64,000 nucleotides of DNA, from positions 4,654 through 68,653 of IMG/VR virus record IMGVR_UViG_3300045988_108221. One strand, given 5' to 3'. Both the position numbers and the translations under genes were made by a program. Numbering within the stretch: the first letter of the stretch is position 1; the number at the start of each line of letters is the position of its first letter. The DNA comes from a virus. Positions 21,514-52,802 of the stretch are shown piece by piece. The notes beneath the pieces are model-generated. The model made no database searches, was not told where the DNA came from, and saw nothing but the letters and a program-made list of their open reading frames with translations.

Positions 21514-21553
21514 ATAAGTAGAAATCATGGAAACACACAGGAGGAAACATATC

Positions 21554-22084
21554 ATGGCTAATACAACAGAACCAATTAGAAATCTATCAAAAGTCCAAGA
21601 AATGAAACAAGCACTAGGGAATGACCGAGATAAAATGTTGTTCACTCTTGGCATTAACTCTGGTCTCCGCATCAGCGACCTTGTCGGTCTCACAGTCGAT
21701 GATGTTAAACCAGAGATGGAATTGTATGAACAAAAGACAGGTAAGTTCAAACGGTTTATGTTATCTAAAGAGGTCTACGCATTGTTATGCGAATACGCAA
21801 GCCGATGCAAGCATTGGTTATTTCCAAGTCGCTCTGGTGACGGACATATCTCGACCGTACAAGCGTGGAGGAAAATCAAAGCTGCATCCGTGAAATGTGG
21901 TTTAGATAACATCGGTACGCACTCGATGCGTAAAACATTTGGATACCATGCGTATCGCAAAGGTGTACCGATTGCGTACCTTATGCAAGTCTTTAATCAT
22001 TCCTCGGAAGCAATCACAATGCGATACATTGGTATCACAACAGAGGAATTAAATACTAAAGTGTATGCCATTATGGCTTTATAA
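21554..22084 (+). CDS. minimal tyrosine recombinase (catalytic domain only)
   Basis: Start at ATG 21554 behind AGGAGG. Catalytic signature present: GLRISD (Arg), KTGKFK (Lys), HSMRKT (H..R), NHSSEAITMRY (His, Tyr). Only about 25 aa precede the catalytic domain. Confidence 0.8.
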   Translation: MANTTEPIRNLSKVQEMKQALGNDRDKMLFTLGINSGLRISDLVGLTVDDVKPEMELYEQKTGKFKRFMLSKEVYALLCEYASRCKHWLFPSRSGDGHISTVQAWRKIKAASVKCGLDNIGTHSMRKTFGYHAYRKGVPIAYLMQVFNHSSEAITMRYIGITTEELNTKVYAIMAL

Positions 22085-23732: not shown

Positions 23733-24377
23733 CATATGCACCATACTAGGGTTAGTCAATCAATCGAATAGTATCAATGTAATAGAATATCTAATTGCTT
23801 ACATTCATTATCACTTGTATTCTCAATATGTAGATGTCATATATTGAAAACTATCGATATATATGTTTGTACATAGAGTATTCGTTCATGTATCAACTAA
23901 CGGTTTACAGTTGGGTAACATATGAGTAGATACTCATGTATGCACTATATGCATTATACCTATGATTTTAAGTAATGTTTAATATTGGTCTTGGCTGGCG
24001 GTGGTTGTAAAATTGTATTTTACACAATGTTTTTTATTTGGGTACATCAATAAGGGTTCAAAATTCTGTAGTATCACTCGCCTAAGTCAATGCCATTGTA
24101 CACCCTACGTACACTACCAAAGTACAACCACATCACAATACAATACGTTTATACATCTGTTACATACATGAGTAATACATATGTATAAAACAAATAAAAA
24201 TACAACGATATACAACGATTGTATATAACAGATATATTTACCGTTGTATGCTCATTTGTATTCGTTGCATATGTTTATATTCGAACGAGATTAAACGCAC
24301 CGTATAACTCAAATAAATCAATCGTTTATTCTCATTTAGTCGTGCGTATTGATAACGCCTGCGTTATGTGTAGCATA

Positions 24378-24391
24378 TGAACATACGTTCA
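24378..24391. promoter_or_regulatory. palindrome TGAACATACGTTCA (GAAC-N4-GTTC core)
   Basis: Read directly; one mismatch from the 23719 copy. Confidence 0.55.
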
Positions 24392-24440
24392 TATGTTATG
24401 TTTGTATGAATGGTTGTTTATATATTGAATATAAATATAA

Positions 24441-24465
24441 GCGGTACAGAAATGATCTGTACCGC
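24441..24465 (-). terminator. GCGGTAC-stem hairpin after gene 24476..24736
   Basis: 10-bp stem GCGGTACAGA / TCTGTACCGC with a 5-nt loop. The downstream T-run on the minus strand is weak. Confidence 0.45.
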
Positions 24466-24475
24466 TTGTTATTGT

Positions 24476-24736
24476 TTACATATAACATTCAACAAGACTT
24501 TGCACGGTATCTTTATTTACAGTATCAAGGCTATCCAAATATGTGCTATTTGTATGTATAGCTATTAACTTATTTTTATAGCCTTTTTTACTAATAATTT
24601 TAAATCTAATTAAATAGTTCCATCCTTCCATATCGTTAAAATATAGGAATTTTACTGATGTACATTTAATGTTATCAATTAAATGTAGATTTCTTTGTAA
24701 AAAGTCAAATAATGCATTATATGTATATGTTTTCAT
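24476..24736 (-). CDS. hypothetical protein (AT-rich cassette)
   Basis: Start moved to ATG 24736 (MKTYTYNALFDF..) behind AAGGGG; 86 aa. Confidence 0.5.
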   Translation of the reverse strand: MKTYTYNALFDFLQRNLHLIDNIKCTSVKFLYFNDMEGWNYLIRFKIISKKGYKNKLIAIHTNSTYLDSLDTVNKDTVQSLVECYM

Positions 24737-24753
24737 TTTAATAACCCCTTTTC

Positions 24754-24945
24754 TTAACATTCCCAATAATCAACAATATCATTATGGGCAGTAATTAAAT
24801 CAATCATGTGAAAATATAAATATTCTTTTGAACATTCCCATAACTCATTAGAATTATTATTAATAGTTGCCACATCATGAGCGTGATTTATTGCATAATC
24901 GATGTACACCATGGATATATACGTTATGAGACTGCCAAAATACAT
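24754..24945 (-). CDS. hypothetical protein (AT-rich cassette)
   Basis: 63-aa ORF; no convincing SD seen. Confidence 0.3.
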   Translation of the reverse strand: MYFGSLITYISMVYIDYAINHAHDVATINNNSNELWECSKEYLYFHMIDLITAHNDIVDYWEC

Positions 24946-24972
24946 ATGGTCTAAAAACGCTATATTTGCTTT

Positions 24973-25176
24973 CTAAGGCGTTTTATATGTTTTACATACA
25001 ATCATAAGCGAATGTTTTTACACGCACCCTATAGCGTAAAATAACGAATGTTTTATTGAGAAATGTTCTCAAAATATATGGATGCCTACGCTGGTGTTCT
25101 CATTTAGGATTTCTAATTGAGAATTGCTGCTTAAGGTGTACACGCAAGAAAAAGCGGTATCTATAAGGATACCGCC
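24973..25176. repeat. non-coding repeat module, copy A
   Basis: Aligns block by block with 28637-28810: TACAATCATAA, ATAACG, TTATTGAGAA, ACGCTGG, TTCTCATTT, TCTAATTGAGAAT, then a GGCGGTAT-stem hairpin. Confidence 0.65.
25146..25176 (-). terminator. rho-independent terminator after gene 25184..25495
   Basis: GCGGTATC / GATACCGC stem (25154-25161 / 25168-25175), followed on the minus strand by TTTTTC. Confidence 0.7.
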
Positions 25177-25183
25177 GTATAAA

Positions 25184-25495
25184 CTATAATTCATTTAGAG
25201 TGTTTTTGTAAACCGTGTATAATTCATGTTCAAGGAACGGCAACCATCTCCATTTATCCGCTTTGTCTAAAATCCTTTCATTGATAAACACAATTTCAGA
25301 TATAACATAAGCACGATAATTCATAGTATTTTCGTGTTCCTCTTTTACCCTACTAGGGTTATAACCGTAACACTCGGCATCTCGTAAGAAATTTAATAAT
25401 TTACCTTTATCTTTTGTAGGCTTGCCACTTGTAGCATAATTAGATACTACGTTCAATATAGCTTTTTTCGTGTATTCGTTTTTGATAGTAAACAT
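25184..25495 (-). CDS. hypothetical protein (AT-rich cassette)
   Basis: 103-aa ORF with a terminator directly downstream. Confidence 0.5.
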   Translation of the reverse strand: MFTIKNEYTKKAILNVVSNYATSGKPTKDKGKLLNFLRDAECYGYNPSRVKEEHENTMNYRAYVISEIVFINERILDKADKWRWLPFLEHELYTVYKNTLNEL

Positions 25496-25525
25496 TATTA
25501 TATTACCTCTTTTTATTCCTTTCGT

Positions 25526-25915
25526 TTATACGATATAACTACTTGCAACGGCGAGCCGTTCGCCGTCAATCATAATCTGAACACCTTTATATAAGTTAAT
25601 AGGTAGTAAATATCTTTGATGTGTATAACTATAAATATGCTCGTTTTCATAAATCAAAAATTGCCCTTGATTATTCTGTAATTTAACTTTATATAAATCA
25701 AACTTGATATAATACCGCCGTAAAACACGATTATTTTTATCAAGTAAGATATAAAACTCTTTGCCTTCGCTATCACATGGATAATAAGTGATAGCGTTAT
25801 CTATTTTATATAGTGTACCATTGTTATATAATCGGTTGCGTTTTTCTATTGTGATAGGTTTAAACTCTACCCACTTTAAACCATAATACACTTTTATGTT
25901 TTCTACTGTTTTCAT
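25526..25915 (-). CDS. hypothetical protein (AT-rich cassette)
   Basis: 129 aa; GGAGGG SD. Confidence 0.55.
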   Translation of the reverse strand: MKTVENIKVYYGLKWVEFKPITIEKRNRLYNNGTLYKIDNAITYYPCDSEGKEFYILLDKNNRVLRRYYIKFDLYKVKLQNNQGQFLIYENEHIYSYTHQRYLLPINLYKGVQIMIDGERLAVASSYIV

Positions 25916-25997
25916 GTGTTCCCTCCGATGTGATCACTTATGATTATATTCCACGGTTAAACACAAACGGTATAACCGTGGTTAAAAAATTCTTATG

Positions 25998-26066
25998 TTA
26001 TAATGTTTGATTGTTTTTCGTGCGTTGAATAAACACGATAATTAAACTTAATAAAACTAAAGCCAT
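25998..26066 (-). CDS. possible 22-aa hydrophobic peptide
   Basis: AAAGGGGA SD, then MALVLLSLIIVFIQRTKNNQTL. Below the ORF-track cutoff. Confidence 0.3.
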   Translation of the reverse strand: MALVLLSLIIVFIQRTKNNQTL

Positions 26067-26098
26067 ATAAATATGTTCCCCTTTCGATTGATAAGCAA

Positions 26099-26401
26099 CT
26101 ATAGATATAACTCATCAAGATAATATAGCAAATCAAGATATCTATTGAGAGACTTTATAAAGTCATTCAAATTGTTGTATTCCTTATGTGTTCCCTTAAC
26201 AGTAATAAAACAATAATTATTACCTTGCACAAATATATGTATATCGTAGTCATGATATAATAACGTATGTATTTTATCGTATTCTACATAGCTATAAAAC
26301 ATATAACTTTCTGCATATGTGATAATTTCATAATCTTTTGACATATCAAATATAAATGCATTTAGGTTTATAATCTTATGTATATTATCTTTTGTTTTCA
26401 T
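26099..26401 (-). CDS. hypothetical protein (AT-rich cassette)
   Basis: 100 aa; AGGGGTG SD. Confidence 0.55.
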   Translation of the reverse strand: MKTKDNIHKIINLNAFIFDMSKDYEIITYAESYMFYSYVEYDKIHTLLYHDYDIHIFVQGNNYCFITVKGTHKEYNNLNDFIKSLNRYLDLLYYLDELYL

Positions 26402-26411
26402 ATTTTCACCC

Positions 26412-26771
26412 CTAACAATAAACTACAAATGGACTATACATATCTGTGTATGCAACACATGATTCACAACAAATATTTCTAAATGTTTTTTCATAGTCAA
26501 TCGATATCCAATACGGTAAATCACCATATAAACCACTTTCATAAAAATATAAGTCTATATAATTATAAATATCTGTATAATACCAACAATCACCATTTTT
26601 AATATATTCGCTTGACTCGTCAATATTCAAATCTTGACTTAAAATGTCAAGCATATCCATTTCATATTCTGAAAATTCGTTGATACACTCAAGAAAATCA
26701 TGCAATCCATCAAGTGTTCCTAACTCGTTTTTATATTGTCGTGCATATTGTAACAATGTTATAAATTCCAT
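26412..26771 (-). CDS. ArdA-like antirestriction protein (C-terminal domains only)
   Basis: YNYIDLYFYESGLYGDLPYWISIDYEKTFRN parallels the Tn916 ArdA segment YDVARYYIEETGALGEVPASLQNYIDYQAYGRD (from memory). Acidic; lacks the ArdA N-terminal domain. Confidence 0.4.
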   Translation of the reverse strand: MEFITLLQYARQYKNELGTLDGLHDFLECINEFSEYEMDMLDILSQDLNIDESSEYIKNGDCWYYTDIYNYIDLYFYESGLYGDLPYWISIDYEKTFRNICCESCVAYTDMYSPFVVYC

Positions 26772-26782
26772 GTTGTACCTCT

Positions 26783-27367
26783 TTAACCGTTAATTTCTGT
26801 AATAAGTCCGATATCTTCACCGTCAATAGTAAAATAGTATTGACTACAATAATTTATTAATTCCTTTGTATCTAATAAGTCATTATGGTTATTATGATAA
26901 TGTTCTATAATTAATTCTATATCTTTATCAAAATCATAAAAACTTTGTTGTAATTTTCTCCATTCGTTCGCAAGTTGTAAACATTCGCTATCAGATAATA
27001 AAAGATAATTCTCTAACTTAAAGCCGTTAACATCAAATATTTGATATTTTACGTTTTCGCCGTTTATGTCTGCATTAGGTAAAACAAAACGAATAAGCAA
27101 TGATAATTTTTTATTATCGTTTATAAACATTTCTAAAGCATCACCATAATAGCTATATTTATAAAGACATTGATAATGAGTAGTAATATTATATTCTTTT
27201 TCTTGTACATTAGATAATAATATCATATCAATAAGTTCGTCAATCATTCCATTATGAATGATATTATCAAGCATATTTTTCTTTATTTTATTTTGTACAT
27301 CAATAGATAATTCATTATATTCATATATATTAATTGTCTTTGTTTCTGTTTTTGTAATTGTTTTCAT
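26783..27367 (-). CDS. hypothetical protein (AT-rich cassette)
   Basis: Start moved to ATG 27367 (MKTITKTETKTINIYEYNELS..) behind AAGAGG; 194 aa. Confidence 0.5.
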   Translation of the reverse strand: MKTITKTETKTINIYEYNELSIDVQNKIKKNMLDNIIHNGMIDELIDMILLSNVQEKEYNITTHYQCLYKYSYYGDALEMFINDNKKLSLLIRFVLPNADINGENVKYQIFDVNGFKLENYLLLSDSECLQLANEWRKLQQSFYDFDKDIELIIEHYHNNHNDLLDTKELINYCSQYYFTIDGEDIGLITEING

Positions 27368-27368
27368 T

Positions 27369-27635
27369 TTAACCTCTTTCAATAATCATATATAATTCTT
27401 CATTATTTACTTTTTCAATGTGTAACGGCGAAAATTTTCGAATAAATCTATTTAAGTATTTAGATGTGGTATGAGAATATTTTTCTCTATCTTGATACAT
27501 TACATCATTTTTACTATCATATACGGCAATCAAAGTATTATAACTTTGAAAAGCTGTTAGATTTAAACAGATATTAATAATAAATTGATTGGGAACCGTG
27601 TTACCCTTACTACTTAACATATTTTGTACTAACAT
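27369..27635 (-). CDS. conserved phage/plasmid protein of unknown function
   Basis: The pattern NQFII....FQSYNTLIA....YSHTTSKYLNRFI recalls a widespread unnamed phage/plasmid family (memory only). Confidence 0.5.
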   Translation of the reverse strand: MLVQNMLSSKGNTVPNQFIINICLNLTAFQSYNTLIAVYDSKNDVMYQDREKYSHTTSKYLNRFIRKFSPLHIEKVNNEELYMIIERG

Positions 27636-27748
27636 AATTTTTGCCCTTTCATTCGTTCCAATACGGTATATACTCTATTCATACCGTACACCATAGCCAC
27701 AGTAAACACCATAGCCAAAACATTTTTTAAAATCATAGATAATTCCAT
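27629..27748 (-). CDS. possible 39-aa membrane peptide
   Basis: MELSMILKNVLAMVFTVAMVYGMNRVYTVLERMKGQKLC. Stop overlaps the next start (ATGTTAG). First ORF after promoter 27900-27928. Confidence 0.35.
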   Translation of the reverse strand: MELSMILKNVLAMVFTVAMVYGMNRVYTVLERMKGQKLC

Positions 27749-27899
27749 AGGCTACACCCTTTCGATTAAATATATAACCTTTTCTATGGTCTTATTGTAC
27801 CGCTTAGTAGGTGCAATGTACAATAGTTTTTATCTATGGTTGCCATAGTTTTAAGCTATGGCGGTACACCATTGAATACCGCTATACAATAGATATATA

Positions 27900-27928
27900 T
27901 AAATACCACAAAAACACGAATTTGTCAA
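27900..27928 (-). promoter_or_regulatory. sigma70-type promoter for cassette 27748->25184
   Basis: Minus-strand TTGACA (27928-27923), 17-nt spacer ending in TGG, then TATTTA. Confidence 0.55.
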
Positions 27929-28259
27929 ATTTTAGCAAAAACCAAGCGTAAATGAGAATGTCTCTCAATAAAACGTTTAAATATTTGCGTTCTAAGGTCT
28001 GTCTAAAGTCTCCGCCTTATGATTGTATGCAAAAAGTCAAAAACGCCGTACAACGCAAATAAATCAATTCTAGAGGTATTGTCTAAATGAGAATGACGGT
28101 GGTATCTTTTGTATGCATACATAAGTTATGAATTTGTTTGTCTACAATAGACACCGTTGTATATCGAATGTTTTCTATATGTTATTAACAAATATAATCA
28201 TTATTGACTAATAGCTAAAATTTTCGATATGGTTTACGCAGGCGGTGGTCGTGCAATAT

Positions 28260-49085: not shown

Positions 49086-49393
49086 TCGACTACCTCCGTT
49101 GTTCCAACGTCTTCGCTACAGGTCACAGGTTCAGCATCGAAGTTAAAGCTAAAGATTTTCTGTAAACGCTCTTGTGTGATATATTTCGTATGTTTGTTTT
49201 TATCTGGAAAATACAGTCTCACTCGTGGTGCTAAATAGCCAGCTTGACTGCGTTCACCATGCAGTTTCGTACAAATGTAAAACTCGTCACCAACACGCAA
49301 GTCATTGACAAACGCTGTTCTCGATTGTCGGTGAATTGCAGTCACTCGGTAACGGTCAACAGTACGAAACTCTTGAGTTTTTATGTTTAACAT
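49082..49393 (-). CDS. hypothetical protein
   Basis: Start taken at ATG 49393 (MLNIKTQEF..), TAATG overlap with the nuclease stop. Confidence 0.45.
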   Translation of the reverse strand: MLNIKTQEFRTVDRYRVTAIHRQSRTAFVNDLRVGDEFYICTKLHGERSQAGYLAPRVRLYFPDKNKHTKYITQERLQKIFSFNFDAEPVTCSEDVGTTEVVE

Positions 49394-50265
49394 TACTTTT
49401 TTATCCTTTCTTGATAATATGGACAACAATATGATACACTACAATAGTCTTTACATTTGCGACCCATTGGATATGTCTTGGACACCCATCGGTCTTTTGC
49501 AGAACACTCTCGTGGTAATTCTTGTTTGGCGATGGCATTTACCAAGGCATCCTTTTTGTATAACGCATAATCAAGCAACCTCTGGTCGTTCATCTTGGGT
49601 AGCTGTATTAGATAACATTGTTTATCTAAATTGAATGTCTTGATTGTATTAATTGGCTCTTTGATAATCACTTGTAAGAACATGTCATTGATTGGTATAC
49701 CATGCTTATTTAACAGTATTCTATATAAATTTTGTTGCTTGCAGTAATCTCCATAATGGTGTAAACCATCGTATACCCATTGTTGTCGCATCTCGGTTTC
49801 ACCCTTGCGTTTACCACGAGTGATTGTATATGGTCTCCACAATGGTCTTCCGCCCATCATTGTCGCACACTTGTATGCACCAACGACTTTGTAATCATAC
49901 AAGGTATGATGCTCTAAGTCAATACAGTCCATCTGACCTGTGAGACCTTGATAATTCAACCGAAACTCACCTGCGTAATTCTGCGGTAGACAATTCTCAA
50001 GAATACCATGCACGGATGTACCGACTGTCGCAGCAATCGAAGAGAATGGGTTGATTGTCTCTGGGTTGTTTGCCTTGAGATACATGTATAATGTTGGAGA
50101 CAATACCTCGGTGACTGAGAAGTGGTCTCTATTTAAATTCCTGAGACGACTTGCATTTACAAGCAAAGGTTTTGCAAGACACCGTTGCCCCATTCGACAT
50201 TCTTTCATACAGTCTTTAACCAGTATGGTTTTGCCGTCAGGGCACAGAAAGGAGTTTTCTTTCAT
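49393..50265 (-). CDS. PD-(D/E)XK nuclease with Cys cluster (Cas4/RecB-like exonuclease)
   Basis: N-terminal Cys residues, core MDCIDLE..LYDYKV, C-terminal CKDYCSVSYCCPYY. Confidence 0.6.
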   Translation of the reverse strand: MKENSFLCPDGKTILVKDCMKECRMGQRCLAKPLLVNASRLRNLNRDHFSVTEVLSPTLYMYLKANNPETINPFSSIAATVGTSVHGILENCLPQNYAGEFRLNYQGLTGQMDCIDLEHHTLYDYKVVGAYKCATMMGGRPLWRPYTITRGKRKGETEMRQQWVYDGLHHYGDYCKQQNLYRILLNKHGIPINDMFLQVIIKEPINTIKTFNLDKQCYLIQLPKMNDQRLLDYALYKKDALVNAIAKQELPRECSAKDRWVSKTYPMGRKCKDYCSVSYCCPYYQERIKK

Positions 50266-50291: not shown

Positions 50292-50320
50292 ATTATACAG
50301 TATTTTTCTATGTTTGTCAA
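50292..50320 (-). promoter_or_regulatory. consensus sigma70 promoter
   Basis: Minus-strand TTGACA (50320-50315), 17-nt spacer, TATAAT (50297-50292). Confidence 0.75.
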
Positions 50321-50517: not shown

Positions 50518-50592
50518 TGCACTCAGCAAGACTCGAACTTGCATAACGAAAAAGATGATGAGAACCGTTGTTTTACATTAAACTATGAGTGC
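50518..50592 (-). ncRNA. tRNA-like element with aberrant 15-nt anticodon-position loop
   Basis: 7-bp acceptor GCACTCA/TGAGTGC, D arm GTTT-aatgta-AAAC, canonical T arm GCAAG-TTCGAGT-CTTGC. The stem AACGG/TCGTT encloses TTCTCATCATCTTTT. No encoded CCA. Confidence 0.4.
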
Positions 50593-50747
50593 ATGAGCGA
50601 CTTGGGTTTTACCCCAAGTCAGTTAGGAGGAAAAATCATGCGTACCTCTTGGACTATTACCCAAGACATACGATGTATGCCAGCCGAATGGCAAACCCTT
50701 GAGTAAACCATTCGGTGATACAATGGCGTACCATATGCATCTGGCTC

Positions 50748-50837
50748 TGGAGGAAAGTGTGGGATTTGAACCCACGGAACATTTCTGTTCGACAGTTTTC
50801 AAGACTGTTGCATTAAACCAAACTCTGCCAACTTTCC
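50748..50837 (-). tRNA. tRNA-Ser (anticodon UGA), type II, CCA encoded
   Basis: Hand-folded. Acceptor GGAAAGT/ACTTTCC. Anticodon arm ACAGT-CTTGAAA-ACTGT. Long variable arm GAACA-gaaa-TGTTC. T arm GTGGG-TTCAAAT-CCCAC. 3' end TCCA. Confidence 0.85.
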
Positions 50838-50934
50838 ATGTGAGTCGGCTGACAAAACAGCGTACGTCCGTTCTGTCTCTAACGGCAAGCCAGCTCATAC
50901 CGACCACCTTATTAGCTAGATAAGATGGATTTAA

Positions 50935-51026
50935 TGGAGGATGGTACAGGATTTGAACCTGTGGTCGTTTTAATGAACGACATCTCTTTAGCAAAGAGAC
51001 TCAATAAACCACTCTGACAACCACCC
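50935..51026 (-). tRNA. tRNA-Ser (anticodon GCU), type II, CCA encoded
   Basis: Hand-folded. Acceptor GGGTGGT/ACCATCC (G3-U70 wobble). Anticodon arm TCTCT-TTGCTAA-AGAGA. Variable arm GTCGTT-cattaa-AACGAC. T arm ACAGG-TTCAAAT-CCTGT. 3' end TCCA. Confidence 0.85.
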
Positions 51027-51445
51027 ATGTCTACCGCCACACAATCCTTGTTGTGTCATTCAACCACCGAAAGATTGCAATCTCGATGTCTTATGTTCGT
51101 ATACGTCTATACTCATCGGCGGTAGGAGCTATAGCGTACCTGTTGTAGCTTGACAGGCTCAAGCGAGTTTTAACGTCTTCACAATGACGGCGGTCAATAT
51201 AGAGCGGACTCTACATTTTTACACATGATGTTATCGTCTTGTCTGACGGTGTAATTATGAGATTACACACCCCTGTTAGTTTTATCAAGGCTATCAGAAA
51301 CTTGTTTTTGATGTTTGTTTGTCGCACATCAACCAAGCGACCTGTCTTTTACATCTATAGTGATGGTTTACAGTTGTCTCTGTCATGATTCTCGCTACAT
51401 GCAACGCTCACTTTTGACACGGTAGGTAGCACCGTTTATGCTATT

Positions 51446-51505
51446 TGGGTCTCTTGGGAATCGAACCCAAGGTCAAGTATACTCGATTGCTTCCTGCAAC
51501 GACCC
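51446..51505 (-). ncRNA. 60-nt mini tRNA-like element (acceptor plus T arm only)
   Basis: GGGTCGT...TTGGG-TTCGATT-CCCAA-GAGACCC-A. A canonical T arm and an acceptor with one mismatch. The D and anticodon arms are replaced by a tetraloop hairpin TCGAG-tata-CTTGA. Confidence 0.35.
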
Positions 51506-51588
51506 ATGTGTGTCAACGGATGTTACTCCGTTGACTATGTTAAGAAAGGAGGTGGACTAAGTAGGAACACAAACCTTAGTACACTATT

Positions 51589-51617
51589 ATAATAACATCT
51601 CCAACAGTACATGTCAA
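51589..51617 (-). promoter_or_regulatory. sigma70-type promoter of the tRNA operon
   Basis: Minus-strand TTGACA (51617-51612), 17-nt spacer, TATTAT. Confidence 0.6.
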
Positions 51618-51641: not shown

Positions 51642-52802
51642 TTATGAGAAATAATTAATCTCTGATAGATGAGATGTTTTCTCGTCATACTTGAATTGGA
51701 ATATATTGGCTGGCCCTCGTAATTTTCTACGAGTCTTACCAATTTTAACATATGTATGGTTCTTGACTTTTTCTCTTTCGTCAAAATCAAGTTGCGTATC
51801 GGTGATATATGGTCGCCACAACAACAAAATAATATCTGCAATGGCTTTTAACGCATTAGAACCCTTGATGTACCTCAATATTGGTTCATATGGTTTCTTA
51901 CTTTTTTCTTTCCCAAAGGTATTTTGAGATTCCTCGTTGAACTGGCAAAGCATAAACAAAATCAAGTTGAACTTTTTAACGTATTCTTTCATCTTGTTTG
52001 CATTTTTGGACAACACAGGAATGTCGTCAATATCAGGTATCAAGTGGAAATGGTCGAACACAACAAAATCCACAGGGAAATCGTTAGCATAACAAACCTC
52101 TGTAATCTTCTCAAGGTCTTCAATGGTTTTATTCGGCTCGTCAACAAAACGTACACGCTTGTCTAGCACAGCAGACACTTTTGAGTAAATCTCGATACCT
52201 GACTCCGTCTGCAACATCTCAAATAATTCGTCTTCTTCAACCCCAAGAATTTCCTTGACGATTTCAGCCAAGAATTGACCTCTTGGCATTTCCAAGGAGA
52301 AAATTAAGACATTATCATTAGAGTCCATTAATCGATGTGCAGCAACCTTGGCTGCAAAGAATGATTTACCTTGGTTGGTGTATGCACCAAGCAATACGAT
52401 TTCTCTACGTTTAACACCATTGATTGCAAAATCCAAGGATGGAAAACCAAGAGGAACACCCTCTTGACCGATGAATGTCTTCATGTCCTCAAACGAGTCA
52501 TTAAACCCATGGACTTTTTCCCAAAGTTCTTCACTATTGGAAGCAGTCACATCGAGATAATTTTTGACATCTTCAATGGAACGCTCCCATCGTTTTGCCA
52601 GCATGGTGGCAATATCGGCAAGCACCATTTTGTCTGTTACCGACTTGCAGAACCGAGATGCTTTTTTATATTGGTCTTCTTTTCTTGGGTATTCTTCCAA
52701 AAGAACATTCAAACATGTAATATCTAATGGTTCAGTCTCAAGAGAGCCAATGTCAATATTTTGGACTAACAAGTCGTTGTAATCTTTACATTGTTTCTCC
52801 AT
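51642..52802 (-). CDS. dnaB: DnaB-family replicative helicase
   Basis: Walker A GAYTNQGKSFFAAKVA, Walker B-like DFVVFDHFH, RecA-type C-terminal domain; 386 aa. Confidence 0.8.
   Translation of the reverse strand: MEKQCKDYNDLLVQNIDIGSLETEPLDITCLNVLLEEYPRKEDQYKKASRFCKSVTDKMVLADIATMLAKRWERSIEDVKNYLDVTASNSEELWEKVHGFNDSFEDMKTFIGQEGVPLGFPSLDFAINGVKRREIVLLGAYTNQGKSFFAAKVAAHRLMDSNDNVLIFSLEMPRGQFLAEIVKEILGVEEDELFEMLQTESGIEIYSKVSAVLDKRVRFVDEPNKTIEDLEKITEVCYANDFPVDFVVFDHFHLIPDIDDIPVLSKNANKMKEYVKKFNLILFMLCQFNEESQNTFGKEKSKKPYEPILRYIKGSNALKAIADIILLLWRPYITDTQLDFDEREKVKNHTYVKIGKTRRKLRGPANIFQFKYDEKTSHLSEINYFS

What the first reader, a model, noticed from the sequence alone, without database searches (positions are those of the whole stretch)
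51027..51536. About 480 nt of hairpin-dense non-coding RNA at the head of the tRNA operon, starting with a 60-nt mini tRNA-like element
Downstream of promoter 51589-51617 the minus-strand transcript begins with a 9-bp hairpin (51513-51536). Next comes a 60-nt element (51446-51505) with a canonical T arm (TTGGG-TTCGATT-CCCAA) and an acceptor stem, but a tetraloop hairpin replaces the D and anticodon arms.

About 420 nt without ORFs then follow, packed with local stems:
- GGTGTAAT/ATTACACC at 51248-51269
- TGATGT/ACATCA at about 51311-51333
- ACGGT/ACCGT at 51419-51435
- ACACAA/TTGTGT at 51039-51056
- a long-range pair CTACCGCC (51031) / GGCGGTAG (51118)

An acceptor plus T-arm minihelix is the minimal substrate for CCA-adding enzyme, RNase P and some synthetases. 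It is also the part of a tRNA gene usually duplicated at phage att sites. The function of the rest is unknown.
Basis: seen in the sequence. Interest (0 to 1): 0.65.

Follow-up and report, generated by a model that had tools for sequence, protein, structure and literature searches.

The report
Structured RNA heading phage tRNA array
A gut-phage tRNA operon begins with about 560 bases of conserved, non-coding, tightly folded RNA (a non-decoding mini tRNA look-alike, three pseudoknots and an almost invariant four-way junction) that matches no catalogued RNA family and has no known function.

Summary
The promoter is a conserved TTGACA-17-TGnTATTAT.

The region is homologous in at least 36 distinct leaders from 64-72 kb human-gut phage contigs. 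Across them 93% of predicted pairs are kept, against 31-42% in slid controls, with many compensatory changes.

The anatomy on the minus strand is:
- a 5' hairpin, an invariant CU-rich 18-mer and a 9-bp hairpin;
- a 60-nt miniature cloverleaf with a 7-bp acceptor stem, a canonical T arm, a GG-loop D-like hairpin and a 4-5-nt-loop stub instead of an anticodon arm;
- about 320 nt of exchangeable modules, including three H-type pseudoknots;
- a 95-nt four-way junction, nearly invariant, ending 4 nt before the first tRNA.

Rfam 15 gives no hit, even at E<=10. Tests for tmRNA, hammerhead, ROOL, GOLLD, Y RNA and attP all failed.

The best reading is a new phage structured-RNA family, excised from the tRNA precursor by RNase P and RNase Z at tRNA and tRNA-like punctuation. 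It is the same kind of object as ROOL and GOLLD, but not homologous to them. Its function is unknown.

In passing: host type III-A CRISPR arrays carry spacers against the junction domain, and related arrays hold several classes of anticodon-arm-less tRNA look-alikes.

The parts
51589..51617 (-). Sigma-70-type promoter: TTGACA, 17-nt spacer, TG-extended TATTAT. The inferred transcription start is near 51582.
   Evidence: The scan scores 11 of 12 consensus matches with TG present. Both hexamers are invariant or nearly so in the 13-sequence alignment.
51556..51580 (-). 5'-terminal stem-loop (ACUAAG / CUUAGU) beginning about 2 nt from the inferred 5' end.
   Evidence: It appears in the MFE and centroid folds. 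It covaries across clades: CUAAG/CUUAG changes to CCAAG/CUUGG, and other clades carry a different hairpin at the same place.
51535..51552 (-). Invariant single-stranded 18-mer CCUCCUUUCUUAACAUAG. It looks like an anti-Shine-Dalgarno sequence, or alternatively like a boxA element.
   Evidence: It is identical in all family members, apart from one A/G difference. There is one copy in the window. Phage genes use GGAGG ribosome-binding sites.
51512..51535 (-). 9-bp hairpin GUCAACGGA-GUAACA-UCCGUUGAC.
   Evidence: Pairing is 100% across 19 leaders, with U-A changing to C-G and A-U to G-U. Clade 2 has a longer hairpin at the same position.
51446..51505 (-). 60-nt non-decoding tRNA-like miniature cloverleaf. 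It has a 7-bp acceptor stem with one G.A mismatch, a D-like hairpin with a GG loop, a stub hairpin with a 4-5-nt loop, a 5-bp T stem with loop UUCGAUU, and discriminator A. No CCA is encoded, and U sits at position -1.
   Evidence: Fold z = -3.1. Between the two allelic types, 8 of the 12 acceptor plus T pairs change on both sides and stay paired. ARAGORN does not call it, and Rfam gives no tRNA hit at E<=10.
51352..51445 (-). Module A: the UAGCAUAA motif plus four hairpins, namely ACGGU/ACCGU (51435-51419), CGUUG/UAGCG (51406-51393), CAG-AGACAA-CUG (51383-51370) and CAUC/GAUG (51365-51352).
   Evidence: Pairing is 97-99% for the first two hairpins, with one-sided wobble changes. The whole module is missing in some relatives.
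51308..51341 (-). H-type pseudoknot 1. Stem S1 is GUCGC/GCGAC and stem S2 is UUGAUGU/ACAUCAA.
   Evidence: S1 covaries to ACCGC/GCGGU and S2 is invariant, across 7 sequence versions. The module is absent in 6 of 18 type-A leaders.
51273..51304 (-). H-type pseudoknot 2. Stem S1 is CAAG/CUUG and stem S2 is CUGAU/AACAG.
   Evidence: S1 covaries to CAGG/CCUG. S2 covaries to CUGUU/AACAG and CUGAG/CACAG.
51235..51268 (-). Two hairpins with conserved loops: GUGUAAU-CUCAUA-AUUACAC and CGUC-AGACAA-GACG.
   Evidence: Four of 7 pairs in the first hairpin and 2 of 4 in the second show compensatory changes, while the loops YYCAUA and AGAYAA are conserved.
51174..51213 (-). Hairpins UAGAG/CUCUA (51213-51200) and CGUC/GACG (51189-51174), followed by the conserved sequence AGACGUUAAAA.
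   Evidence: The second hairpin is 100% paired and invariant, and the first is 81% paired. This block is present in every type-A leader aligned, in part only in L008.
51139..51163 (-). H-type pseudoknot 3. Stem S1 is CUUGA/UCAAG and stem S2 is CCUGU/ACAGG, lying just upstream of the 3' domain.
   Evidence: Three unrelated sequence versions at this position can each form a pseudoknot. One of them covaries internally, CGCA/UGCG to CGUA/UACG.
51031..51125 (-). 95-nt four-way junction, the 3' domain. P1 is an invariant 8-bp stem. P2 is GUAUA-GACG-UAUAC. P3 has a 6-bp stem, a UU bulge, a 3-bp stem and a UGCA loop. P4 is ACACAA-CAAGGA-UUGUGU. The junction purines are invariant.
   Evidence: On 24 variants, 99.6% of cells are paired, 11 of 28 pairs are compensatory and 0 of 500 shuffles match. 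Fold z = -4.0. The covariance model gives one hit per genome, at 95-120 bits on the sense strand and 15-19 bits on the antisense strand.
51027..51030 (-). ACAU linker placing U at position -1 of the first tRNA, the expected RNase P cleavage context.
   Evidence: Seen directly in the sequence. Nearly all tRNAs and tRNA-likes in 42 arrays are preceded by NNAU (a few by ACAC).
50935..51026 (-). tRNA-Ser(GCU) with an encoded CCA. It is the first canonical tRNA and marks the 3' boundary of the leader.
   Evidence: Called by ARAGORN and by Rfam at 50.7 bits.

Best explanation
The minus-strand stretch from about 51582 to 51027 is the untranslated front part of a phage tRNA-array precursor. It encodes a family-specific, multi-domain structured RNA.

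**Shown:**
- It has its own conserved strong promoter.
- It folds into a 5' hairpin, an invariant CU-rich 18-mer, a hairpin, a non-decoding tRNA-like miniature cloverleaf, exchangeable hairpin and pseudoknot modules, and a nearly invariant 95-nt four-way junction.
- These helices are maintained by compensatory substitutions on the transcribed strand only.
- The leader's fixed parts are more constant across genomes than the tRNA repertoire behind them.

**Inferred mechanism:**
- The tRNA-like element and the first tRNA act as punctuation. RNase P cuts 5' of each, where U is at -1 and the acceptor plus T stack is 12 bp. RNase Z cuts after the discriminator of the CCA-less tRNA-like element.
- This would release a leader RNA of about 75 nt, a 60-nt tRNA-like RNA that the CCA-adding enzyme could complete, and a structured RNA of about 420 nt running from 51445 to 51027.
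- The 3' end of the 420-nt RNA would be capped by the four-way junction.
- The released RNA of about 420 nt would then act in trans during early or middle infection. Most likely it binds a host or phage factor of the tRNA or translation apparatus, as is suspected for ROOL and GOLLD RNAs. Its actual target is unknown.
For: - **Promoter.** It is confirmed and conserved.
- **Not protein-coding.** No ORF exceeds 49 aa, and frames are not preserved across relatives.
- **Folding.** z = -3.3 for the whole leader, -4.0 for the 3' domain and -3.1 for the mini tRNA-like.
- **Covariation.** In the 3' domain, 99.6% of cells are paired and 11 of 28 pairs are compensatory, with 0 of 500 shuffles as good. 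Across all 25 helices, 93% of cells are paired against 31-42% when slid. In the tRNA-like element, 8 of 12 acceptor and T pairs are compensated between the two alleles. Pseudoknot stems covary.
- **Strand specificity.** The covariance model scores 95-120 bits on the sense strand and 15-19 bits on the antisense strand, with one copy per genome.
- **Conservation pattern.** The 18-mer, the tRNA-like element and the 3' domain occur in every one of 36 unique leaders, whereas the tRNAs behind them vary among Ser, Asn, Gln, Tyr, Phe and Ile.
- **Processing context.** Nearly every tRNA or tRNA-like element is preceded by NNAU. Canonical tRNAs carry an encoded CCA, while the tRNA-likes do not.
- **Precedent.** Phage and prophage RNAs next to tRNA islands, possibly co-transcribed with them, are documented. 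GOLLD also has a conserved 3' region and a variable 5' region (PMC5737381; PMC12286853). [quoted passage not shown]
Against: - No expression or processing data exist, so the released species are inferred only from structure and sequence context.
- Whole modules, including pseudoknots 1 and 2 and hairpin blocks, are missing in some genomes. That argues against one integrated three-dimensional fold like that of ROOL, and allows the middle to be dispensable spacer.
- The family was found only by near-exact motif scans, and only in one group of 64-72 kb gut phages. Covariation therefore rests on a narrow phylogeny with recombination among modules.
- No partner protein is evident in the neighbouring genes, which encode replication and nucleotide-metabolism functions.
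- The acceptor stem of the window's element carries a G.A mismatch, which could weaken RNase P or RNase Z recognition.
Confidence: 0.55

Rival explanations
1. The region is a purely cis-acting leader with no independent RNA product. Under this reading, the 5' hairpin plus the invariant 18-mer would form an rrn-type nut-like signal, with a boxB-like hairpin followed by a linear boxA-like motif. That signal would make RNA polymerase resistant to Rho on a long untranslated transcript. The downstream structures and the four-way junction would only stabilise the precursor and order its processing.
For: - The operon is at least 1.2 kb of untranslated RNA with no intrinsic terminator predicted on its strand. 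Such a transcript is exposed to Rho.
- The order hairpin then linear U/C-rich motif near the 5' end is the order found in rrn leaders (PMC8632103).
- UCUUAACA in the 18-mer resembles the E. coli boxA core UCUUUAACA. This comparison is from my own recall and was not tested.
- The 18-mer is invariant while its flanks vary.
- The middle modules are dispensable in some genomes.
- The 3' domain always abuts a tRNA or tRNA-like element.
Against: - The host and its boxA sequence are unknown, and the similarity needs a gap.
- A simple stabilising leader does not explain pseudoknots kept by compensatory change in three unrelated sequence versions.
- It also does not explain a 95-nt junction with invariant unpaired purines, or a maintained tRNA-like elbow with a GG loop.
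- The same 18-mer is equally well read as an anti-Shine-Dalgarno look-alike.
Confidence: 0.22
2. The region is an anti-defence decoy. The mini tRNA-like element, together with the other anticodon-arm-less tRNA look-alikes in these arrays, would present the tRNA acceptor, T arm and elbow without a decodable or cleavable anticodon. In that way they would soak up host tRNA-targeting nucleases or toxins, or other tRNA-binding factors.
For: - Several independent classes of truncated tRNA-likes are conserved across 42 arrays. They have intact acceptor, D and T arms and Rfam tRNA scores of 52-57 bits, but lack an anticodon arm.
- The mini element keeps the GG loop needed for an elbow.
- Phage tRNA genes are known to counter tRNA-cleaving defences, for example Septu cleaving tRNA-Tyr (abstract of PMC13096335).
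Against: - No defence system or target is identified.
- A decoy role does not explain the 420 nt of other structure or the junction domain.
- Truncated tRNA-likes could equally serve only as processing punctuation, or be decaying genes.
- No literature precedent for anticodon-less decoys was found.
Confidence: 0.12
3. The region is non-functional debris: eroded tRNA genes and spacer left by turnover of the array.
For: - The tRNA content of the arrays is in flux.
- Modules come and go.
- The mini element could be a tRNA that lost its anticodon arm.
Against: - The 3' domain averages 88% column identity over its 24 variants, whereas the whole leader averages 60% column identity.
- Compensatory changes occur in many helices.
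- Unpaired motifs are invariant.
- No tRNA-model hit falls anywhere in 51027-51445 at E<=10.
Confidence: 0.04
4. The region is a DNA-level element: either an attP core derived from a tRNA 3' half, or a replication origin or cruciform region beside the helicase gene.
For: - It lies in the replication module directly downstream of a DnaB-like helicase.
- It is dense in inverted repeats.
- tRNA 3' halves are common att cores.
- A small tyrosine recombinase is encoded in the window.
Against: - The 24-nt 3' half of the element has 0 matches in 185,579 species genomes. The domain pattern also has 0 matches, so no prophage copies were found.
- The recombinase gene is 30 kb away.
- Many helices rely on G.U pairs, and the covariance model is strongly strand-asymmetric. 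That points to an RNA constraint rather than a duplex-DNA constraint.
- No iterons or tandem repeats are present.
Confidence: 0.04

Closest known systems
ROOL (RF03087) and GOLLD (RF01998) RNAs: large ornate non-coding RNAs of phages and prophages found near tRNA islands
   Same: - They are encoded by phages next to tRNA genes, possibly co-transcribed with them, and are several hundred nucleotides long with multistem junctions and pseudoknots.
- Their function is unknown.
[quoted passage not shown]
   Different: - There is no covariance-model match to either family, even at E<=10 on 581 nt or at E<=1 on 61 kb of relatives.
- The conserved core here is only 95 nt.
- The middle is a string of exchangeable modules rather than one ornate fold.
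- The distribution is narrow, limited to one group of gut phages.
- Nothing here bears on whether the RNA forms multimers or cages.
tRNA-like modules of non-coding RNAs: the tmRNA tRNA-like domain, the YrlA Y RNA module, and mascRNA-type punctuation
   Same: - All have an acceptor stem plus a T arm with a canonical T loop and a reduced D element, and no anticodon function.
- Such modules are substrates of RNase P and the CCA-adding enzyme, as shown for YrlA (PMC4201824).
- They are used to define RNA ends.
   Different: - There is no tag reading frame, and ARAGORN makes no tmRNA call.
- The acceptor stem closes only a 60-nt element, not the whole RNA.
- No Rfam family, Y RNA or otherwise, matches the region at E<=10, and no Ro60-sized gene was seen.
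- A GNCGAA-like string in the junction domain is not conserved.
Phage T4 stable RNAs, species 1 and 2 (rnaC and rnaD), in the T4 tRNA cluster. This comparison is from my own knowledge and was not tested here.
   Same: They are small stable RNAs of unknown function, co-transcribed with phage tRNAs and cut out by the tRNA-processing machinery.
   Different: They are much shorter and come from an unrelated phage and host. No sequence or structure comparison could be run.
rrn operon leader nut-like site (boxB hairpin, boxA, boxC)
   Same: Both have a hairpin followed by a linear pyrimidine-rich conserved motif at the 5' end of a long untranslated structured transcript (order as described in PMC8632103).
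   Different: - The sequence resembles boxA only partially, and only by my recollection of the E. coli consensus.
- The host's boxA is unknown.
- The motif is equally an anti-Shine-Dalgarno look-alike, CCUCCUUUCU.

Membership tests
tRNA (RF00005) | Cloverleaf with a 7-nt anticodon loop on a 5-bp stem, detectable by tRNA models | tested here: not met
   ARAGORN does not call 51446-51505. Rfam gives no tRNA hit at E<=10, even on a 581-nt slice. The hairpin at the anticodon position has a 4-5-nt loop.
tRNA (RF00005) | A 7-bp acceptor stem stacked on a 5-bp T stem with a UUCRANY T loop | tested here: met
   The stems GGGUCGU/GAGACCC and UUGGG-UUCGAUU-CCCAA are present. Eight of the 12 pairs are compensated between alleles.
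tmRNA | A tRNA-like domain closing the whole molecule, plus a tag reading frame ending in a stop codon | tested here: not met
   ARAGORN, which includes permuted forms, finds none. Rfam gives no hit. No tag-like frame appears in three-frame translation.
ROOL / GOLLD | A match to the family covariance model (conserved junctions and pseudoknots) | tested here: not met
   There is no match at the gathering threshold, at E<=10 in the window, or at E<=1 in 8 relatives.
ROOL / GOLLD | Genomic context: phage or prophage, adjacent to tRNA genes | tested here: met
   The region lies at the head of the tRNA array in every family member, and the contigs are phage genomes.
Hammerhead ribozyme | Conserved core CUGANGA ... 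GAAA around three helices, with a non-G residue at the cleavage site | tested here: not met
   The core-like string reads CCGAUGAG...CGAAC. The GAA varies to CAAAC and CACAC. The junction has four helices, G occupies the would-be position 17, and Rfam gives no hit.
Bacterial Y RNA (YrlA) | Encoded next to a Ro60/Rsr gene; GNCGAAN0-1G motif; match to the Rfam model | tested here: not met
   No Rfam family of any kind matches the region. The motif's C is not conserved, appearing as GUUGAAUG or AAUGAAUG. No Ro60-sized ORF with such a function was seen among the neighbours tested, but not every protein was scanned.
Phage attP core derived from a tRNA 3' half | Identity to the 3' end of a host tRNA gene, and adjacency to an integrase | tested here: not met
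   The 24-nt 3' half has 0 matches in 185,579 species genomes. The only PF00589 protein (185 aa) is at 21527-22084, 30 kb away.
Type III toxin-antitoxin RNA antitoxin (ToxI-like) | Tandem direct repeats of a pseudoknot unit of about 34-45 nt | tested here: not met
   No tandem repeats are found at a minimum score of 30. The only direct repeats are T arms and tRNA 5' junctions.
rrn-type nut-like antitermination site | A boxA sequence bound by NusB/NusE | not testable with these tools
   Only the order hairpin then linear motif could be compared. The host is unidentified and there are no binding data.

The most novel reading that the evidence does not exclude
This may be a previously undescribed class of phage-encoded large structured RNA. 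It would combine a tRNA-like module, pseudoknots and a four-way-junction core, be cut out of a tRNA-array precursor by the host's tRNA-processing enzymes, and act in trans on the host tRNA or translation machinery, or on a tRNA-targeting defence. It would work together with a set of deliberately anticodon-less tRNA look-alikes in the same operon.
Probability: 0.3. Interest if true: 0.8.

Novelty: new variant of a known kind. Interest (0 to 1): 0.62.

Why it matters
- **A third example of an unexplained kind.** Phage tRNA islands are known to harbour two enigmatic giant RNAs, ROOL and GOLLD, whose function is still unknown. This would be a third, unrelated family in the same genomic niche. It is small and modular, with a 95-nt invariant core and a clear proposed processing logic. 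That makes it a tractable handle on why phages pair structured RNAs with tRNA genes.
- **Non-decoding tRNA look-alikes.** The conserved anticodon-less tRNA look-alikes suggest that part of what is annotated as phage tRNA arrays does not serve decoding at all.
- **Annotation.** The family is common in human-gut viromes. A covariance model for it would annotate an otherwise blank 0.5 kb in these genomes.

Tried and rejected
- **Known RNA families.** Rfam was searched at the gathering threshold and at E<=10 or E<=1 on the window and on 8 relatives. Only tRNAs and chance snoRNA-level hits appeared.
- **Hammerhead.** The string CCGAUGAG-stem-CGAAC looked like a hammerhead core. It was rejected because the core positions vary, the junction has four helices, and G sits at the would-be cleavage position.
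- **tmRNA.** There is no tag frame and no ARAGORN call.
- **Kissing-loop dimerisation.** The palindrome GAUUGCAAUC suggested this. The variants GGUUGCAACC and UAGUGCACUA show it is simply a 3-bp stem closing a UGCA tetraloop.
- **CsrA sponge.** GGA occurs in two loops, but it is not conserved in P4 variants or in clade 2.
- **ToxI-like repeat antitoxin.** No tandem repeats are present.
- **attP.** There were 0 genome hits.
- **Trans target of the 18-mer within the phage.** No second site or complementary site was found within 3 mismatches.
- **Cultured relatives.** None were found. blastn and tblastn against 50,697 phage records found only tRNA hits and helicases at about 22% identity.
- **Prophage or host copies.** There were 0 hits in genome contigs.
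- **Earlier catalogue.** The partly held supplement of the human-microbiome structured-RNA catalogue was checked, and the sequence was not found. This is not conclusive.
- **CRISPR spacer orientation as evidence of transcription.** Orientation was mixed, 2 antisense and 2 sense, so it is uninformative.
- **AGAC enrichment.** AGAC occurs 9 times against 3.1 expected, with 0 of 500 shuffles as high. This was noticed post hoc and would not survive correction for 256 tetramers.
Full report
**1. What is in the sequence**

On the minus strand, the DnaB-like helicase gene (51642-52802; PF03796) is followed by a promoter. The -35 TTGACA lies at 51617-51612, then comes a 17-nt spacer and a TG-extended TATTAT ending at 51589. 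From about 51582 the strand carries no ORF longer than 49 aa on either strand down to the first tRNA.

ARAGORN and Rfam find tRNA-Ser(GCU) at 50935-51026 and tRNA-Ser(UGA) at 50748-50837. In permissive mode Rfam also finds an odd tRNA at 50518-50592, whose anticodon-position loop is 15 nt long. Nothing in Rfam 15 matches 51027-51600. This holds at E<=10 and when only 581 nt are searched, which loosens the filters.

The 557-nt leader folds better than all 100 dinucleotide shuffles, with z = -3.3.

**2. Relatives**

No cultured phage has this region. The helicase protein recovered 12 IMG/VR contigs at 82-98% identity. Three short motifs from the leader were then used as exact patterns, and they recovered many more contigs from IMG/VR and from human-gut metagenomes. 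The contigs are mostly 64-72 kb.

In total, 64 loci hold a full leader. These comprise 36 distinct leaders of 456-707 nt and 24 distinct versions of the last 95 nt. The gene context is a replication and nucleotide-metabolism module. Primase, an ssDNA-annealing protein, methylases and the helicase lie before the array. An exonuclease, a dNMP kinase, RusA and dUTPase lie after it. The structural genes are Mu-like or Mushu-like.

**3. Anatomy supported by comparison**

(a) *5' hairpin.* A stem-loop begins about 2 nt from the inferred start (51580-51556). It covaries, with CUAAG/CUUAG changing to CCAAG/CUUGG, and other clades carry a different hairpin at the same place.

(b) *Invariant 18-mer.* The single-stranded sequence CCUCCUUUCUUAACAUAG (51552-51535) is invariant.

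(c) *9-bp hairpin.* It spans 51535-51512 and is 100% paired, with U-A changing to C-G.

(d) *The 60-nt element (51505-51446).*
- It exists as two alleles. One has GGGUCGU/GAGACCC with UUGGG/CCCAA, and the other has GGACUGU/ACAGUUC with ACAGG/CCUGU. Eight of the 12 acceptor and T-stem pairs differ on both sides and remain paired.
- The T loop UUCGAUU is constant.
- The interior varies from 26 to 51 nt.
- In the window it folds as a miniature four-way cloverleaf.
- The first inner hairpin keeps GG in its loop in every variant, like the D loop that forms the tRNA elbow. Its stem covaries, C-G to U-A.
- The second inner hairpin has a 4-5-nt loop, so no anticodon can be presented.
- No CCA is encoded, and position -1 is U.

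(e) *Middle section, about 320 nt.* It is built from modules that are individually present or absent in different genomes.
- It includes three H-type pseudoknots. In PK1 (51341-51308), stem 1 changes from GUCGC/GCGAC to ACCGC/GCGGU.
- In PK2 (51304-51273), both stems covary.
- At PK3 (51163-51139), three unrelated sequence versions can each form a pseudoknot, and one of them covaries internally.
- Hairpins with conserved loops also covary: GUGUAAU-CUCAUA-AUUACAC and CGUC-AGACAA-GACG.

(f) *Last 95 nt (51125-51031).* These form a four-way junction.
- P1 is an invariant 8-bp stem and P2 is a 5-bp stem with a GACG loop.
- P3 has 6 bp, a UU bulge, 3 bp and a UGCA loop. P4 is a 6-bp stem.
- On 24 variants, 99.6% of cells are standard pairs, 11 of 28 pairs show compensatory double changes, and 0 of 500 shuffles reach this. 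Slid controls pair at 26-46%.

A covariance model of this domain finds exactly one copy per phage genome. It scores 95-120 bits on the transcribed strand and 15-19 bits on the other. Over all 25 helices and 19 leaders, 93% of cells pair, against 31-42% in slid controls. The many G.U pairs and the strand asymmetry show that the constraint acts on the minus-sense RNA, not on duplex DNA.

**4. What varies and what does not**

The tRNAs behind the leader differ from genome to genome. The two Ser tRNAs are usually present, while Asn, Gln, Tyr, Phe and Ile come and go. By contrast, the promoter, the 18-mer, the tRNA-like element and the 95-nt domain occur in every leader. Versions of the 3' domain do not track the 5' clade; for example, L013 and L005 share one domain version. 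The locus is therefore a recombining mosaic around fixed parts.

The domain is always followed by A(C/A)AU and then a tRNA or a tRNA-like element whose identity varies.

**5. How it most likely works**

The following points are shown. There is a dedicated promoter and an untranslated, strand-specifically structured RNA. A tRNA-like element has the 12-bp acceptor plus T stack and the elbow features that RNase P, RNase Z and the CCA-adding enzyme recognise. U sits at -1 before nearly every tRNA and tRNA-like element. Canonical tRNAs have an encoded CCA and the look-alikes do not.

From this I infer that the precursor is cut by RNase P at 51505/51506 and 51026/51027, and by RNase Z after 51446. 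That would release a leader of about 75 nt, a 60-nt tRNA-like RNA and a structured RNA of about 420 nt ending in the four-way junction. [quoted passage not shown]

The trans function of the 420-nt RNA is unknown. By analogy with ROOL and GOLLD, I favour binding of a host or phage factor. Those RNAs occur in the same genomic niche, GOLLD has a conserved 3' part and a variable 5' part, and tRNAs are sometimes embedded in it.

The 18-mer has two readings.
- It may be an anti-Shine-Dalgarno look-alike. The window version CACCUCCUUUCU equals the 3' end of Bacillota 16S rRNA as I recall it, and phage genes use GGAGG ribosome-binding sites.
- It may be a boxA-like element following a boxB-like hairpin, as in rrn leaders. 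Only the order of elements could be compared.
Neither reading could be tested.

**6. Rivals**

- A purely cis-acting antitermination or processing leader is the main rival, at 0.22. It explains the 5' part and the dispensable modules. It does not explain the pseudoknots kept in unrelated sequence versions or the invariant junction purines.
- A decoy role for the tRNA-like elements (0.12) is suggested by several conserved classes of anticodon-arm-less tRNA look-alikes in the 42 arrays. It has no identified target.
- Debris (0.04) is contradicted by the covariation.
- A DNA-level att or ori element (0.04) is contradicted by strand asymmetry, by zero genome matches and by the distance to the recombinase gene.

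**7. Comparison with known families**

Membership tests failed for tRNA (anticodon arm and model score), tmRNA, ROOL and GOLLD, hammerhead, Y RNA, a ToxI-like antitoxin and attP. Details are in the membership table.

The RNA works like known tRNA-like punctuation modules, and it occupies the same niche as ROOL and GOLLD. It is not a member of any catalogued family. I rate it a new variant of a known kind, that kind being phage structured RNAs co-encoded with tRNA islands.

The human-microbiome structured-RNA catalogue (PMC8040213) could be checked only in part, so prior listing there cannot be excluded.

**8. Side findings**

Two partial covariance-model hits turned out to be CRISPR spacers. 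L066 and L062 are type III-A loci, encoding cas10/csm1, csm2-6, cas6 and cas1. Their arrays each carry a spacer against the start of the 95-nt domain, and L062 has at least five spacers against this phage family. This links the phages to a host with type III-A immunity. Spacer orientation is mixed, so it does not by itself prove transcription.

**9. Verdict**

The locus is a real, conserved, uncatalogued structured RNA with a plausible excision mechanism and an unknown function. I score interest at 0.62.

Noticed in passing
window 50518-50592 (-); relatives e.g. L023:5568-5624, L013:1939-1995: A third tRNA is missed by ARAGORN but scores 45.7 bits in Rfam. Its acceptor, D and T arms are normal, but a 15-nt loop sits where the anticodon loop should be. 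In 14 related arrays the homologous GCACA-type element is about 55-57 nt with the anticodon arm deleted outright, yet still scores 52-54 bits.
   Followed up: partly
L013:1383-1447, L030:1422-1480, L015:9789-9905, L009:5814-5931: A GGAGA-type tRNA-like element follows the 3' domain in many relatives. Its interior ranges from 26 to 86 nt. Some copies have no anticodon arm, and others carry an insertion of about 55 nt containing an extra T-arm-like hairpin at the anticodon position. Canonical tRNAs in the arrays have an encoded CCA, whereas these look-alikes mostly do not.
   Followed up: partly
L066:1727-1768 and L062:9479-9523 (metagenome contigs OGGM01000805.1 and BNJU01001242.1): These are type III-A CRISPR-Cas loci (cas10/csm1-6, cas6, cas1) with the repeat GTTAAATTAAATAATCCCCAGATGGGGACGGAAAC. 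Each carries a spacer matching the first 32-36 nt or so of the 95-nt domain. L062 has at least 5 spacers against this phage family. Orientation relative to the phage transcripts is mixed.
   Followed up: partly
L034:9440-9475 (IMGVR_UViG_3300022753_000048, 122 kb): An unrelated large phage has 28 tRNA genes, including one called tRNA-Pyl(cta). Directly after its tRNA-Gln(ctg) it carries the hairpin GGGCGAAAGCCC followed by UCCUUUCUUAACAUAG. That is the same 16-18-mer as the invariant leader motif, again behind a hairpin and inside a tRNA island. It could be chance.
   Followed up: no
window 50838-50934 and 50593-50747 (-): The spacers between the tRNAs are also hairpin-rich, for example CCGAAUGG...CCAUUCGG and GACUUGGG-GUAAAA-CCCAAGUC. 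The first spacer has recognisable homologues after other tRNA-likes in relatives, always ending in CACAU before the next tRNA.
   Followed up: no
window 51174-51197 versus 51099-51125 (-): The sequence ACCGCCG...AGACGU occurs twice, once before pseudoknot 3 and once at the start of the 3' domain. The upstream copy (UUACUGCC in relatives) could pair with GGCGGUAG instead of the P1 5' strand. This could be a partial duplication or an alternative helix. It was read by eye.
   Followed up: no
window 50292-50320 (-): A perfect TTGACA-17-TATAAT promoter lies just upstream of the exonuclease gene (49393-50265). No intrinsic terminator is predicted on the minus strand between the tRNA array and this promoter.
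   Followed up: no
window 21527-22084 (+), 24001-28000, 27797-27871 (+): A short (185 aa) tyrosine-recombinase-family protein is encoded on the opposite strand. Nearby is a low-GC stretch (0.28, against about 0.38 elsewhere) and a lone tRNA-Lys(UUU), also on the plus strand.
   Followed up: no
window 51027-51583 (-): The tetramer AGAC occurs 9 times against 3.1 expected, and 0 of 500 dinucleotide shuffles reach this. Several copies lie in hairpin loops (AGACAA) or junctions. This was a post hoc observation, not corrected for 256 tetramers.
   Followed up: partly
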